Origin: a virus
Lineage: Duplodnaviria > Heunggongvirae > Uroviricota > Caudoviricetes
Reading direction: 5' to 3' (one strand)
DNA length: 47,716 bases
IMG/VR virus record: IMGVR_UViG_2925929528_000002
Location: 1-47,716 of that record
Below are positions 39,001-42,000 of the stretch, one piece after another. Position 1 is the first letter of the stretch. Every line of letters starts with the position of its first letter. A program made the position numbers.

Positions 39001-42000
39001 TGCAGATGATACCAGACCAACTGCTAGTCATCTCTGATAACCCTCGTTATAGAGAATGGAATATAACTAAAGAGAATGAGCACAGATTCTATATCTATGG
39101 AAAGGTTTTAATAAGCCAGTCTCAGTCCTTTAAACGGCATGGATAGCATTCATCATCATAAACTAGGCCTCATTCGAGGCCTTTTTTTTTGCCTTAAATT
39201 TGCGTTTTACGCACATATCTATTGCGTTACTCGCAATTTATGATTATCTTCTACTCGTCGGCACATGACGCAACTTACGGACAAGGATGAACAGAACACA
39301 ACCTGGAAGCGCATTCCCCTTCTTTCCGTGGGGATCGGTTTGTAACTGAAGGAGTGCGCTTCCAGTTGTGACGTGTACAAGCGTACCGCAGCGCCGGTCG
39401 ACGCAATTTTTAATCCACCCGATAACGGTTTCTTGAGGGTAAACACATGTCTTCATGTTACGCAGTAGTTTTAAACGGTAATACCGAAATTAAATACTTC
39501 CCGTTCCACGACTCACGTAGCGCTGACGATGCTGAAGCTATGGCGGATGAGTGGCGCTACAAGGCGATCGACGCTATTGGAGCGGAAGAGTCTTCTCGCT
39601 TCCACTTGCGCGTAGTTCGCCCAAAGGTCGTTTTTCAGCTTCCATCCGGAGCCGTGGTGGAGTGTGACCTTGATGACGTAGACATCAACCCGCGAGCCTG
39701 CGCCGACCTGGATTACCACCTCTGCGCATTCGGGTTCAATCGTGGTCTTGACTATTGCGGTAACTGGGACTTAGACGGCGCTGAAATTATCGAATACATC
39801 GCATAACGGCTTATTTGGCGGCTATCTAGTCTTCCACCAGCCAAACAGGAGGAAGAGGATAATGTTCTGATGGGTAACCGCCCTTTTTACACAAGACACG
39901 AGAGTACTACCGAGTGACGGGCCCATAACCCAATCCGCTCGGGCTGATGCAGCAGCTGGTGTTCTCCTGTGTTGTGTGGAGATAACTAACTAATCCTTTG
40001 CAGAGGAAACAGAAATGAAATTATCAAAGTTACGTAACGCCCTTGTCTATCGGGCTACTTTGCCCAGCATTGAAGCGGTTGAAGGGCACCTGCAGGAATT
40101 GCCCTACTCTGAACTTACAGAAACGGAGTTCGCGCGGGCTTCCTTCGTCCCTAATCCGATTACTGGCGAGCTGGTTACGCCAATTACTGACGGTTATGCA
40201 ATCGTGGTTCGCCGCGATGAGAAAATAATCCCCCAGCACGTCGTAATGAAAGAAGCCAATGAGCGTATCCAACGCATCGAAAATGCGTCTGGTCAGAAAT
40301 TGAAGCGCACTGACCGTAACAACATTATCCAGGATGCTAAGGTTCAGCTCTGCAAACAGGCATTCATCAAGTCGTCTCTGATCCTGGTCCTGTATAACAC
40401 TGAAGAAAATCTGCTGATCATTAATTCCGCCAATAAAAACATTGCCAATTTAGTCGGGGCGATGCTGGTTAAAGTGATCGGTTCAGTCAAAACAGTCACG
40501 ATCAACATCAGTGATATCAAAAACGGCCTGACAACGCGCCTTAAAAACCATCTGGACGGCGAAGAATCAGCCTTTGCCGGGTTTGAGGTCGGTGATTATG
40601 TCCAGCTATCCCGCCTGGCAGAACAGAAAGAAGTTATTCGCTACTCTGCGGAACACACTTCCGTTACCAGTGAAATTCTGGAGAGCCTGAACACAGGTTT
40701 TATCGTCGATAACATGGAATTAAGAGGCTGCGGCGTCTCTTTTCTGCTTACAGATAAGTTCCATTTCCGGCGGATCGATACCAAGGATAATGATTATTCT
40801 GATGATGACGACAAAGCCTACCGCTGGCGTCACCAGGCAGGTACGGACATGTTCCAGTTCTGTAAAGTAATTAACCAGCTTTGTGATCTGCTCGCCTACA
40901 AAGAGCCCGAAGAACAAAAACCAGCAGCCTGATTAGAACAGCAGCAATTACCCCATTCTCATGGGTTGGGTTGCTGCACCCTAAATTTACGCGTTGCAGC
41001 ACGTCAGATGGAGAACAAAAGATGGCTAAGACAGCAAATCAACTTATTAAACAGGCGTACGAAATAGCCAAAACTATGCCACCAGCACAGGCAGCAATCA
41101 TCAGGGAACTGGCTACCGTCCTCGATGTTTCGAATGTAGCTCTGCGCCAGACGCGCACCGAACGTGACGCCCTTCTCGCAGAGGTCAAATCATGGGCGAA
41201 AGAGTGTGATCGTCTGACCGAGCGACACACCAAGAATCGCACAAATATGCATGTTCTAGAGGCTATTCGCGATTTGAAAGCAATTTGCCCCGCCAGCTTC
41301 CGTAACGTGGAGGCTCTCTGATGGCTAAAGACTCAAAGGTTGTATACGGCGCCAGTGGCAAAACGAACGCTTTGACGTTCGAACCTGAAAACCTGCACCT
41401 GGTTACCGACAAAACGCACCCGCTTTACGATGAGCGTATCCACCTGCCTATCAGCGAGGCAATGGTGCTGAACATCATGGATCAGGGCGTTCTTGAGCCG
41501 ATTATCGTCTGGAAAGACCCGGAGACAGGGCTGTCTTGTGTAGTCGATGGTCGCCAGCGTGTGCGCCATACACTGGAAGCCAACAAGCGACTGTTGAAAG
41601 AGGGTAAAGAACCGTTACTGGTTCCGGCAGTCGCTAAACGTGGCTCTGCCGTTCGCATGGCGCAGGCGATGGTAAGTGCTAACGAAATCCGCCAGGCAGA
41701 TACACCACTGGGCCGAGCAAAGAAAATGGCTGATGCGCTAGAGCGCGGGCACGACGAGGACGATTTAGCGCTGATGTTCGGCGTGAGTGTCCAGACCGTA
41801 CGCGCAACGCTGTCACTACTGGATGCCACCCAGGCTGTTCGCGATGCAGTGGAGTCCGGAACGGTTACCGTTACCCAGGCGCGTCAGCTGGCATCGCTTA
41901 AACCCGAAGAACAGCGGGAAAAGGTAGCGGAAATCGAAGCGGCAACTGCTGGCACAACCGGCCATGAAAAAGCCCGGCGTCAGCGTCAGATCCTCGGTGA

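What the first reader, a model, noticed from the sequence alone, without database searches (positions are those of the whole stretch)
39240..39806. No N-like antiterminator: structured pL leader followed by an acidic 119-aa protein
The ~200 nt downstream of OL contain a long-range inverted repeat (GGAAGCGCA at 39305-39313 / TGCGCTTCC at 39354-39362) enclosing a CCCC...GGGG hairpin, with no following U-tract. The first gene is acidic with no arginine-rich motif, so it is not N-like. Early antitermination may be absent, RNA-based (put-like) or carried by an unrecognised factor.
Basis: inference. Interest (0 to 1): 0.4.

Follow-up and report, generated by a model that had tools for sequence, protein, structure and literature searches.

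The report
Conserved hairpin RNA in phage leader
The inverted repeat is the stem of a 74-base folded RNA module that is conserved, in the same place and direction, in the early-left leaders of many N-less enterobacterial prophages; no database describes it, it is not related to the known put antiterminator RNA, and its function is untested.

Summary
Window 39297-39370 (+) folds into a 20-bp stem with an inner hairpin (-39.3 kcal/mol, z -6.3). I call this module E1. I found about 200 copies (84 variants) in Klebsiella, Escherichia, Enterobacter, Kosakonia and Kluyvera prophages. They lie downstream of a LexA-like repressor gene on the same strand, and the sense strand scores 35-50 bits above the antisense strand.

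E1 belongs to a wider set of long hairpins that share a CACAAC...GUUGUG base and have covarying arms. Each pL leader carries 1-5 of them, and none occur elsewhere in the phage genomes scanned. The window has a second one (E2, 39888-39978), placed directly after an intrinsic terminator (39817-39888).

No Rfam family matches. A covariance model of put RNA finds HK022 and HK639 put but nothing here. put loci and E loci are mutually exclusive.

No N-like protein is present in the early operons. The acidic 119-aa protein is a real, folded protein of unknown family. It behaves as an accessory gene-plus-terminator cassette.

My best guess, at low confidence, is a cis-acting leader RNA that lets pL transcription read through the leader terminator. 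An RNase III processing or stability site is almost as likely.

The parts
38451..39146 (+). cI-like repressor (HTH + S24 LexA-type peptidase). It is transcribed in the same direction as pL.
   Evidence: ORF with a GDSM motif. Annotated as CI repressor / LexA-family regulator in near-identical Klebsiella phages.
39165..39190 (+). Intrinsic terminator of the repressor transcript.
   Evidence: 7-bp GC stem followed by T9.
39200..39250 (+). OL operators (TTGCG..CGCAA palindromes at 39200-39213 and 39221-39237). Inferred pL: -35 TTGCGT 39222-39227 and -10 TATCTT 39245-39250.
   Evidence: The palindromes recur at OR, 38319-38331 and 38369-38381. The promoter assignment is an inference from position; the consensus scan did not call it.
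39297..39370 (+). E1, a 74-nt conserved RNA hairpin. P1: 39297-39302/39365-39370 and 39304-39317/39351-39364. Pyrimidine-rich 5' strand: 39318-39325. P2: 39326-39329/39334-39338 with GGGG loop 39330-39333. 3' strand UUUGUAACUGAA: 39339-39350.
   Evidence: Fold z = -6.26. Covariance model R1 scores 77.2 bits on the sense strand and 44 on the antisense strand, with a single copy in the window. 85 homologs give 95% paired cells in P1 and 80% in P2.
39371..39446 (+). Mosaic joint and untranslated spacer carrying the ribosome-binding site (GAGGG) of the 119-aa gene.
   Evidence: Megablast homology to Klebsiella phage 1 LV-2017 and 10 near-identical Kp48xx records (H8-H18) stops at window 39371. 25 different 3' flanks follow E1 in other loci.
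39447..39806 (+). Acidic 119-aa protein of unknown function; an accessory, moron-like gene.
39817..39888 (+). Intrinsic terminator T: long GGCGG...CCGCC hairpin followed by C-U5.
   Evidence: Fold. Homologous hairpin plus U-run in L003, L004, L005, L200, L281 and L283 with different stems. Terminator-like sites occur 60-900 nt after E1 in 107 of 136 unique leaders.
39888..39978 (+). E2, the second long hairpin of the same kind (ACACAAG...UUGUGU base). It forms a three-way junction. One branch, GGG-CCCAUAA-CCC (39919-39931), resembles the initiator tRNA anticodon arm.
   Evidence: Consensus fold of 15 variants gives 33 pairs, 4 of them with compensatory double changes. In E. coli versions the branch shares 14 identical nt with metZ.
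40015..40932 (+). RdgC-like protein, the first conserved early-left gene after the leader.
   Evidence: PF04381, 2e-35; phrog_724, 1e-79.

Best explanation
E1 is a cis-acting structured RNA made at the start of the early-left (pL) transcript of an N-less, put-less lambdoid prophage. It is one of a family of long hairpins that make up the untranslated leaders of these operons. The hairpins share a CACAAC...GUUGUG base, a purine-rich 5' arm and a pyrimidine-rich 3' arm.

The mechanism I think most likely is this. As the hairpin emerges it acts on the transcribing RNA polymerase, either alone or with host Nus factors. As a result, pL-initiated transcription resists termination at the intrinsic terminator 39817-39888 and at Rho-dependent sites in the untranslated stretches, and reaches rdgC, parB-like, xis and int. 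E1 would thus be a functional analog of HK022 putL or lambda nutL without being related to either.

Shown here: the fold, its conservation, its strand specificity, its fixed position and orientation after the repressor gene, the terminator downstream, the absence of N and put, and mutual exclusivity with put.

Inferred: that pL reads through it, and any effect on termination.
For: - The fold is exceptional (z -6.26).
- About 200 copies and 84 variants occur in viral contigs. In single-species genomes it appears in Kosakonia, Enterobacter, Kluyvera, E. coli, Buttiauxella, Raoultella and Citrobacter.
- 149 of 191 loci have a same-strand S24 repressor ORF upstream, with a median gap of 354 nt.
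- Sense-strand scores are 66-97 bits and antisense scores 29-53 bits.
- One-sided changes in P1 are mostly to G-U, which would be A.C mismatches on the other strand.
- Across 108 distinct arm pairs, cognate arms pair at -27.9 kcal/mol and non-cognate arms at -16.7.
- The hairpins occur only in the leader in whole-genome scans of the window and of mEp390.
- A terminator-like site lies 60-900 nt downstream of E1 in 107 of 136 unique leaders.
- No N-like ORF is found.
- The put model is negative.
- 0 of 67 put loci carry an E-like hairpin. Only 1 of 191 E loci has a stray put 10-mer, 641 nt upstream.
- The published expectation for phage LLS is RNA-mediated antitermination.
- The 3' arms resemble the rrn leader: CAGUGCUCUUU... 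and ...GUGUGG, compared with rrn CACUGCUCUUUAACAA...CUGUGUGGG as I recall it. This is a lead, not a test.
Against: - There is no functional data of any kind.
- Each leader has 1-5 such hairpins rather than one.
- Some hairpins are directly preceded by a terminator. This includes the first hairpin in 8 of 84 unique contexts, for example phages Flotzy and LLS. 42 of 136 leaders have a terminator-like site between the repressor gene and E1.
- 24 of 136 leaders have no predicted terminator on either side of E1.
- There is no counterpart in the pR operon.
- The boxA-like stretch is buried in a 20-bp helix. The window has no canonical boxA in the early region.
- The most conserved part is a plain double helix, which is an unusual polymerase ligand compared with put.
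Confidence: 0.35

Rival explanations
1. E hairpins are RNase III processing or stability signals. The roughly 20-bp P1 helix is cut, separating the leader cassettes (the moron mRNA, tRNA-Arg and other structured RNAs) from the downstream early-left mRNA. The upstream terminator-type hairpins are left as protective 3' ends. This would resemble the RNase III hairpin in the lambda N leader and the conserved intercistronic sites of T7.
For: - P1 is 20 bp, about the minimal RNase III substrate length by established knowledge, and is kept double-stranded by compensatory change.
- The hairpins are repeated between cassettes in one polycistronic leader.
- In 13 loci a tRNA-Arg(UCU) gene begins within the last 3 nt of E1.
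- Small GC hairpins or terminator hairpins sit directly upstream of many E hairpins.
Against: RNase III needs little sequence. Yet the helix base CACAAC/GUUGUG, a bulged A, an A.C mismatch present in 63 of 83 variants, and the UGGG apical loop are all conserved. The strong sense/antisense asymmetry of the interior suggests more than a bare helix. No cleavage data exist.
Confidence: 0.25
2. E hairpins are binding sites for a phage-encoded protein, a nut-like arrangement with an unrecognised factor that then modifies transcription or translation of the early-left operon.
For: - The helix base and apical loop are conserved in a sequence-specific way.
- A CP76/YmfL 'CII-like' gene is present in 156 of 158 E loci but in only 4 of 46 put loci.
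- Small hairpins with GAAGAG or GAAAGA loops that recall boxB precede many E hairpins in relatives.
- mEp phages, the collection that includes the E1 carrier mEp390, were isolated as Nus-dependent.
Against: The CP76 gene is about 1.5 kb away in the same immunity module, so the co-occurrence may be simple linkage. CP76 proteins are known as DNA-binding CII-type activators. The window has no boxB-like hairpin before E1 and no arginine-rich early protein.
Confidence: 0.12
3. The hairpins are scaffolds that display tRNA-like pieces or sRNA seeds. The leader would then be an early, abundant noncoding RNA acting in trans. It could be a decoy for tRNA-targeting defence nucleases or toxins, or a set of regulatory sRNAs like lambda PreS from the early-left operon.
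For: - E2 carries GGG-CUCAUAA-CCC, identical over 14 nt to the initiator tRNA anticodon arm in E. coli versions.
- Other E hairpins enclose T-arm-like GGUUCGAUUCC hairpins.
- True tRNA-Arg and a mini tRNA-like RNA occur in the same leaders.
- An Hfq-dependent sRNA from the lambda early-left operon is a precedent.
Against: E1 itself has no recognisable tRNA feature. ARAGORN finds none, and no tRNA match appears in the Rfam E-value scan. The conserved part is the carrier stem, not a seed. No expression or target data exist.
Confidence: 0.1
4. The palindromes act at the DNA level as recombination or cassette junctions, or are selfish repeats. The conserved AAC...GTT base recalls integron attC sites.
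For: Mosaic joints fall exactly at both ends of E1, with 25 different 3' flanks. In some loci E1 is fused directly to the sequence that normally follows E2, as if E1 and E2 had recombined.
Against: - The elements are found once per genome in 19 E. coli genomes, always in a prophage leader and always in one orientation.
- G-U-preserving and compensatory changes, together with strand asymmetry, point to selection on the transcript.
- Sharp joints are also expected when any conserved functional island is flanked by shuffled DNA.
Confidence: 0.08

Closest known systems
HK022 / HK639 put RNAs (polymerase-utilisation antiterminator RNAs)
   Same: A cis-acting RNA of about 70-75 nt. It lies just downstream of the early promoter of a lambdoid phage that lacks N, upstream of terminators. 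Invariant sequence blocks are combined with covarying stems. It occupies the same genomic slot, and the two are never found together.
   Different: There is no sequence or model similarity: at most 4.1 bits against 50-96 for true put. E1 is one long hairpin with an internal loop, whereas put is two side-by-side stem-loops. Several copies occur per leader and none in the pR operon. No evidence of polymerase binding exists.
lambda nutL with the RNase III hairpin of the N leader
   Same: Structured signals in the untranslated pL leader ahead of the first gene, followed by a terminator after that gene. The layout pL - RNA signal - small gene - terminator is the same as here.
   Different: There is no boxA or boxB in the window and no N-like arginine-rich protein. 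The first gene is acidic and folded, and is absent from most relatives.
Conserved intercistronic RNase III sites of phage T7 early mRNA
   Same: A family of related hairpins of about two helical turns with an internal loop, repeated between cistrons of one early transcript (my own knowledge of T7; not tested here).
   Different: No sequence relationship was tested. E hairpins keep a fixed helix base and apical loop, and they cluster in a leader rather than between every gene.
rrn operon leader (boxB-boxA-boxC) antitermination signal
   Same: The pyrimidine-rich 3' arms resemble boxA, and the trailing GUGUGG resembles boxC. tRNA genes lie inside the untranslated RNA. 23-30 related leaders carry a perfect GCUCUUUAACAA upstream of E1.
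   Different: The window has no canonical boxA. The boxA-like stretch is base-paired. The resemblance rests on the rrn sequence as I recall it and was not scored.

Membership tests
put antiterminator RNA (HK022 putL/putR, HK639 putL) | Conserved sequence blocks GAACGGCGCG and AAACCAUGCGUCGG / GGCGGG...CGGCAAU, and a match to a put covariance model. | tested here: not met
   Model R2, built from 17 put sequences, scores HK022 putL 95.6, HK639 putL 89.4 and HK022 putR 50 bits. It finds nothing at E <= 10 in the window or in 13 E-bearing loci, and at most 4.1 bits with filters off over window 37000-41000.
put antiterminator RNA (HK022 putL/putR, HK639 putL) | Two adjacent stem-loops of about 70 nt in total, forming a V shape. 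| tested here: not met
   E1 is a single 20-bp closing helix enclosing an internal loop and one short hairpin. The put architecture is taken from PMC9378689.
put antiterminator RNA (HK022 putL/putR, HK639 putL) | Location in the early transcript of an N-less lambdoid phage, upstream of terminators. | tested here: met
   E1 lies about 45 nt after the inferred pL. The terminator is at 39817-39888. 149 of 191 loci have a same-strand repressor gene upstream.
put antiterminator RNA (HK022 putL/putR, HK639 putL) | Promotes terminator read-through in cis and is blocked by rpoC zinc-binding-domain mutations. | not testable with these tools
   Needs reporter or in vitro transcription assays.
lambda-type N/nut antitermination | A small arginine-rich N protein encoded promoter-proximally in pL. 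| tested here: not met
   There is no arginine-rich ORF in the early operons. gp119 is acidic (pI 4.37), folded, and has no family. An arginine-rich plus Cys-rich ORF at 43858-44193 lies 4.6 kb downstream next to int and matches only an unknown PHROG.
lambda-type N/nut antitermination | boxA (CGCUCUUA-like) next to a 15-nt boxB hairpin with a purine pentaloop. | tested here: not met
   No boxA-like match in window 37000-41000, and no such hairpin before E1. Relatives do have boxA and GAAGAG-loop hairpins.
RNase III processing site | A double helix of about 20 bp or more in a transcript. | tested here: met
   P1 is 20 bp with one bulge. 95% of cells are paired across 83 distinct sequences.
RNase III processing site | Cleavage by RNase III in vivo or in vitro. 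| not testable with these tools
   No transcript-end data are available.
Any curated Rfam family | A score at or above the family's gathering threshold. | tested here: not met
   The only hit in the window is STnc100 at 32692-32896. Nothing with E < 0.1 occurs in 39100-40100 even with permissive filters.
tRNA / tRNA-like gene | A cloverleaf detectable by a tRNA finder. | tested here: not met
   ARAGORN finds no tRNA in the window. It does find tRNA-Arg(UCU) next to E1 in 13 other loci.
MITE / REP-type dispersed palindromic repeat | Many copies per genome in varied contexts and both orientations. | tested here: not met
   19 of 5426 E. coli genomes carry an E1-type copy, one place each. The orientation relative to the repressor gene is fixed. 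Copies occur only in the leader.

The most novel reading that the evidence does not exclude
The E hairpins are a third, previously unrecognised kind of early antitermination signal in lambdoid phages. It would be RNA-only or RNA plus host Nus factors, unrelated to nut and put. It would operate in the e14 / ST64B / LLS-type prophages, whose E2 core is found in about half of complete E. coli genomes. The same scaffold would also display tRNA mimics, such as an initiator-tRNA anticodon arm.
Probability: 0.25. Interest if true: 0.8.

Novelty: new variant of a known kind. Interest (0 to 1): 0.6.

Why it matters
How lambdoid phages that lack both N and put get their early-left operon transcribed is an acknowledged gap. 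It was stated in 2025 for phage LLS, which carries this element. The element gives that question a concrete, mutable target: 74 nt with a clear stem, a defined terminator 450 nt downstream, and hundreds of natural variants.

The wider hairpin family is absent from Rfam and from genome annotation. Yet the core of one member (E2) matches 2524 of 5426 complete E. coli genomes. It is therefore a large blind spot in prophage annotation whatever its function.

If it proves to be only an RNase III site, it still explains the modular, cassette-like shuffling of morons, tRNAs and structured RNAs in these leaders.

Tried and rejected
- **Rfam.** A gathering-threshold scan of the whole window and an E <= 10 scan of 39100-40100 found no family for E1 or E2.
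- **put.** By-eye comparison with HK022 putL/putR and HK639 putL showed only a shared AGGAUGAAC 9-mer upstream of E1, which I judged non-significant after multiple testing. The covariance model test was negative.
- **Second copy in the pR operon.** None was found.
- **tRNA.** ARAGORN was negative for the window and for L003.
- **N-like protein.** The Pfam and PHROG scans of ten early ORFs found only HTH cro-like, CP76 CII-like, DUF4222, RdgC, an HNH-type endonuclease (DUF968) and Q-like, and the arginine-rich-motif scan of window ORFs of 35-200 aa found none in the early operons.
- **boxA in the window.** Absent from the early region.
- **MITE idea.** Rejected on copy number and fixed orientation.
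- **E. coli K-12 CPS-53.** I checked it as a well-studied carrier, but its leader is deleted.
- **Literature.** Searches on prophage sRNAs (AgvB, AsxR, Pas, STnc100, PreS) found only late-region or lambda-specific RNAs, not this element. King et al. 2011 on new put RNAs is not held.
- **Limit of the covariation statistics for E1.** They are weak because the homologs were collected by an exact 17-nt match to the 3' arm. The compensatory evidence therefore comes from the wider hairpin family and from E2.
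Full report
**Setting.** The window is a lambdoid prophage of the Klebsiella/Escherichia HK97-like group.
- A LexA-type repressor gene (38451-39146, +) is followed by its own terminator (39165-39190) and by two TTGCG..CGCAA operators (39200-39237). These operators recur at OR.
- Divergent from it lie a cro-like HTH gene, a CP76 'CII-like' gene, replication genes, a Dam methylase, RusA and a Q-like late antiterminator.
- Rightward, after the operators, come the finding's leader, a 119-aa ORF, then rdgC-like, parB-like and other genes, and finally an integrase. This is therefore the early-left (pL) operon.
- The pL hexamers (TTGCGT 39222-39227, TATCTT 39245-39250) are my inference from position. 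The consensus scan did not call them.

**The observation.** The two 9-mers exist, although the 3' one is at 39355-39363, one base off. They are the core of a much longer stem.
- 39297-39302 pairs with 39365-39370, and 39304-39317 pairs with 39351-39364. That makes 20 bp with one bulged base.
- The 76-nt stretch 39296-39371 that holds the 74-nt element folds at -39.3 kcal/mol against -19.9 +/- 3.1 for shuffles (z -6.26, 0 of 200).
- No U-tract follows it.
- The 119-aa product has 22 acidic and 10 basic residues and pI 4.37.

**Conservation.**
- Megablast to annotated phages showed that homology with several Klebsiella phages stops at 39371, exactly at the 3' end of the stem. One Klebsiella phage shares only the 76-nt element, and the more sensitive blastn search adds three E. 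coli phages (mEp390, Flotzy, LLS) that do the same. In the three unrelated phages whose loci I read (Kp4866-6, mEp390, Flotzy) it lies downstream of a repressor gene.
- Exact-word scans of viral contigs with the 3' arm gave about 200 instances in 191 loci and 84 distinct sequences.
- 149 of 191 loci have a same-strand S24 repressor ORF upstream, at a median gap of 354 nt.
- A one-genome-per-species scan places true copies in Kosakonia, Enterobacter, Kluyvera, Escherichia, Buttiauxella, Raoultella and Citrobacter.

**Structure of E1.**
- The arms are nearly invariant: CACAAC(A)UGRAAGCGCAYUCC and GGAGUGCGCUUCCAGUUGUG.
- The interior falls into at least six types. All keep a short hairpin P2 with a G-rich loop (GGGG, GUGGG or UGGG), a pyrimidine-rich 5' strand, and a 3' strand of the form ..GGU..G.AAC...
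- A covariance model built on P1+P2 (R1) finds one copy in the window, at 77.2 bits on the + strand and 44 on the - strand. It finds nothing in the pR operon.
- In 82 loci the sense strand scores 66-97 bits and the antisense strand 29-53.
- In the 85-sequence alignment, 95% of P1 cells and 80% of P2 cells pair. One-sided changes in the 5' arm are mostly C-to-U or A-to-G, which keep G-U pairs.
- Formal covariation in P1 is uninformative here, because the 3' arm was fixed by the search.

**A wider family.**
- Scanning the same loci for long stems showed that E1 is one of a broader set of 68-136-nt hairpins. I found 141 distinct sequences and 108 distinct arm pairs.
- All share the CACAAC/GUUGUG base. 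The middle of the stem covaries: GAGC/GCUC, GCGC/GCGC and GGGC/GCCC.
- Cognate arms pair at -27.9 +/- 5.6 kcal/mol and arms from different classes at -16.7 +/- 7.0.
- Leaders hold 1-5 of these hairpins. They lie between E1 and about +800 nt, and none is found elsewhere in the window or in the complete mEp390 genome.

**E2 and the terminator.**
- The window's second member, E2 (39888-39978), directly follows a GGCGG...CCGCC hairpin plus U5 (39817-39888) that has the form of an intrinsic terminator.
- A consensus fold of 15 E2 variants gives 33 pairs, 4 with compensatory double changes and almost none broken.
- One branch of E2 is GGG-CCCAUAA-CCC. In E. coli versions it reads CGGGCUCAUAACCC, a 14-nt identity with the anticodon arm of initiator tRNA.
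- The E2 core matches 2524 of 5426 complete E. coli genomes, upstream of yfdP in prophages with ymfK/ymfT/ymfL immunity regions.

**What it is not.**
- No Rfam family matches.
- It is not put. I collected put sequences from viral contigs, built a model (R2), and recovered HK022 putL (95.6 bits), HK639 putL (89.4) and HK022 putR (50). The window and 13 E-bearing loci gave nothing, and filters-off scores over 37000-41000 were at most 4.1 bits.
- put loci and E loci are mutually exclusive. 0 of 67 put loci have an E-like hairpin. Only 1 of 191 E loci has an isolated put 10-mer, far upstream.
- It is not a tRNA.
- It is not a dispersed repeat. It occurs at one place per genome in 19 E. coli genomes.
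- There is no N. The scan for arginine-rich ORFs found none in the early operons, and the Pfam/PHROG scans of ten early ORFs found no N-like family.

**The 119-aa protein.**
- It is a real gene, with 27 homolog clusters in Klebsiella, E. coli and Salmonella.
- It has no Pfam, PHROG or PDB-sequence match.
- In Salmonella and E. coli homologs it is again the first ORF after the repressor gene and is followed by the same terminator hairpin. The surrounding leader differs, however.
- It is absent from most E1-bearing phages. It is best read as a gene-plus-terminator cassette (moron) inserted between leader modules, not as a partner of E1.

**Mechanism.** The facts that constrain function are these:
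1. Selection is on the sense transcript.
2. The position at the start of the pL operon is fixed.
3. An intrinsic terminator lies downstream in 107 of 136 unique leaders.
4. N and put are absent, and E is mutually exclusive with put.
5. There is no counterpart in pR, where no terminator is predicted either.

These facts fit a cis-acting read-through signal, and I commit to that at 0.35.

Several facts count against it. There are several hairpins per leader. Some hairpins are directly preceded by terminators, including the first one in Flotzy and LLS. 24 of 136 leaders have no predicted terminator. The best-conserved part is a plain helix.

The same helix length, the repetition between cassettes, and the tRNA-Arg that begins inside the last 3 nt of E1 in 13 loci make an RNase III processing or stability role nearly as likely (0.25).

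Three further readings remain open:
- **A phage protein partner.** The CP76/YmfL gene co-occurs in 156 of 158 E loci against 4 of 46 put loci, though linkage could explain this.
- **A trans-acting tRNA-mimic or sRNA scaffold.**
- **A DNA-level recombination role.**

**Known context.** A 2025 paper on phage LLS, which carries E1, states that no N homolog is found and that the phage may use a put RNA-mediated mechanism. The authors point to no element. mEp phages, including the E1 carrier mEp390, were isolated as Nus-dependent. 23-30 related leaders carry a perfect rrn-type boxA upstream of E1, but the window does not.

**Verdict.** The element is an undescribed, widespread leader RNA motif whose function needs a simple reporter experiment.

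Noticed in passing
window 32692-32896 (-): Rfam STnc100 sRNA (83 bits) lies just downstream of the Q-like antiterminator gene 33516-34274 (-). This is the position of a late-promoter leader RNA.
   Followed up: no
window 39919-39931 (within E2, 39888-39978); L283 3000-3100; L005 3750-3880: One branch of E2 is GGG-CCCAUAA-CCC. In E. coli versions it reads CGGGCUCAUAACCC, 14 nt identical to the anticodon arm of initiator tRNA-fMet (three G-C pairs plus the CUCAUAA loop). The E2 core matches 2524 of 5426 complete E. coli genomes, upstream of yfdP.
   Followed up: partly
L200 3088-3164, and 12 other loci: A tRNA-Arg(UCU) gene begins within the last 3 nt (GUG) of E1. The base of the E1 stem and the tRNA acceptor stem therefore compete for the same bases.
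   Followed up: partly
L200 2241-2252, and 23-30 other loci; L380: A perfect rrn-type boxA (GCTCTTTAACAA), preceded by a small hairpin, lies 400-900 nt upstream of E1 on the sense strand in a subset of leaders. One put-type leader (L380) has put stem I fused directly to the same boxA.
   Followed up: partly
window 43858-44193 (+): This ORF has an arginine-rich stretch (KLKRRRWRRMRD) and a C-terminal CxxC-x8-CxxC motif. It matches only phrog_14816 (unknown function) and lies just upstream of the integrase gene 44455-45441. It is too far downstream to act like N, but I did not examine it further.
   Followed up: partly
L003 2750-2885; L283 2690-2815: A 134-nt member of the hairpin family encloses two hairpins with tRNA T-loop sequences (GGUUCGAUUCC / CGUUCGAUUCG). 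ARAGORN calls no tRNA in L003.
   Followed up: no
L003 2700-2760; L004 3480-3500; many loci: Small GC-rich hairpins with purine loops (GAAGAG, GAAAGA) sit directly before many E hairpins. Their stems show compensatory changes (CCCGG/CCGGG versus CCUCG/CGAGG). They recall lambda boxB. The window lacks one before E1.
   Followed up: no
window 37615-38145 (-), and 156 of 158 E loci: A CP76/YmfL 'CII-like' regulator gene co-occurs with E-type leaders but is present in only 4 of 46 put-type loci. This could be linkage within the immunity module or a functional partnership.
   Followed up: partly
L281 2930-2995: In a Salmonella prophage, the gp119 homolog and its terminator are followed by a roughly 65-nt mini tRNA-like RNA instead of E2. 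It has a 7-bp acceptor-like stem GUGUCCG/CGGACAC, a T-arm-like hairpin and a CCA-like end.
   Followed up: no
L005 3310-3385; L003 1805-1880; L200 2130-2205: Another conserved module of about 70 nt (AGCGAACAGGCAGGA.GCCCACGAAGUAGCCGCC...GAUGAUUCGC) lies immediately after pL in Flotzy/LLS-type leaders, ahead of the first terminator. It is a further candidate for an early read-through signal. It is absent from the window.
   Followed up: no
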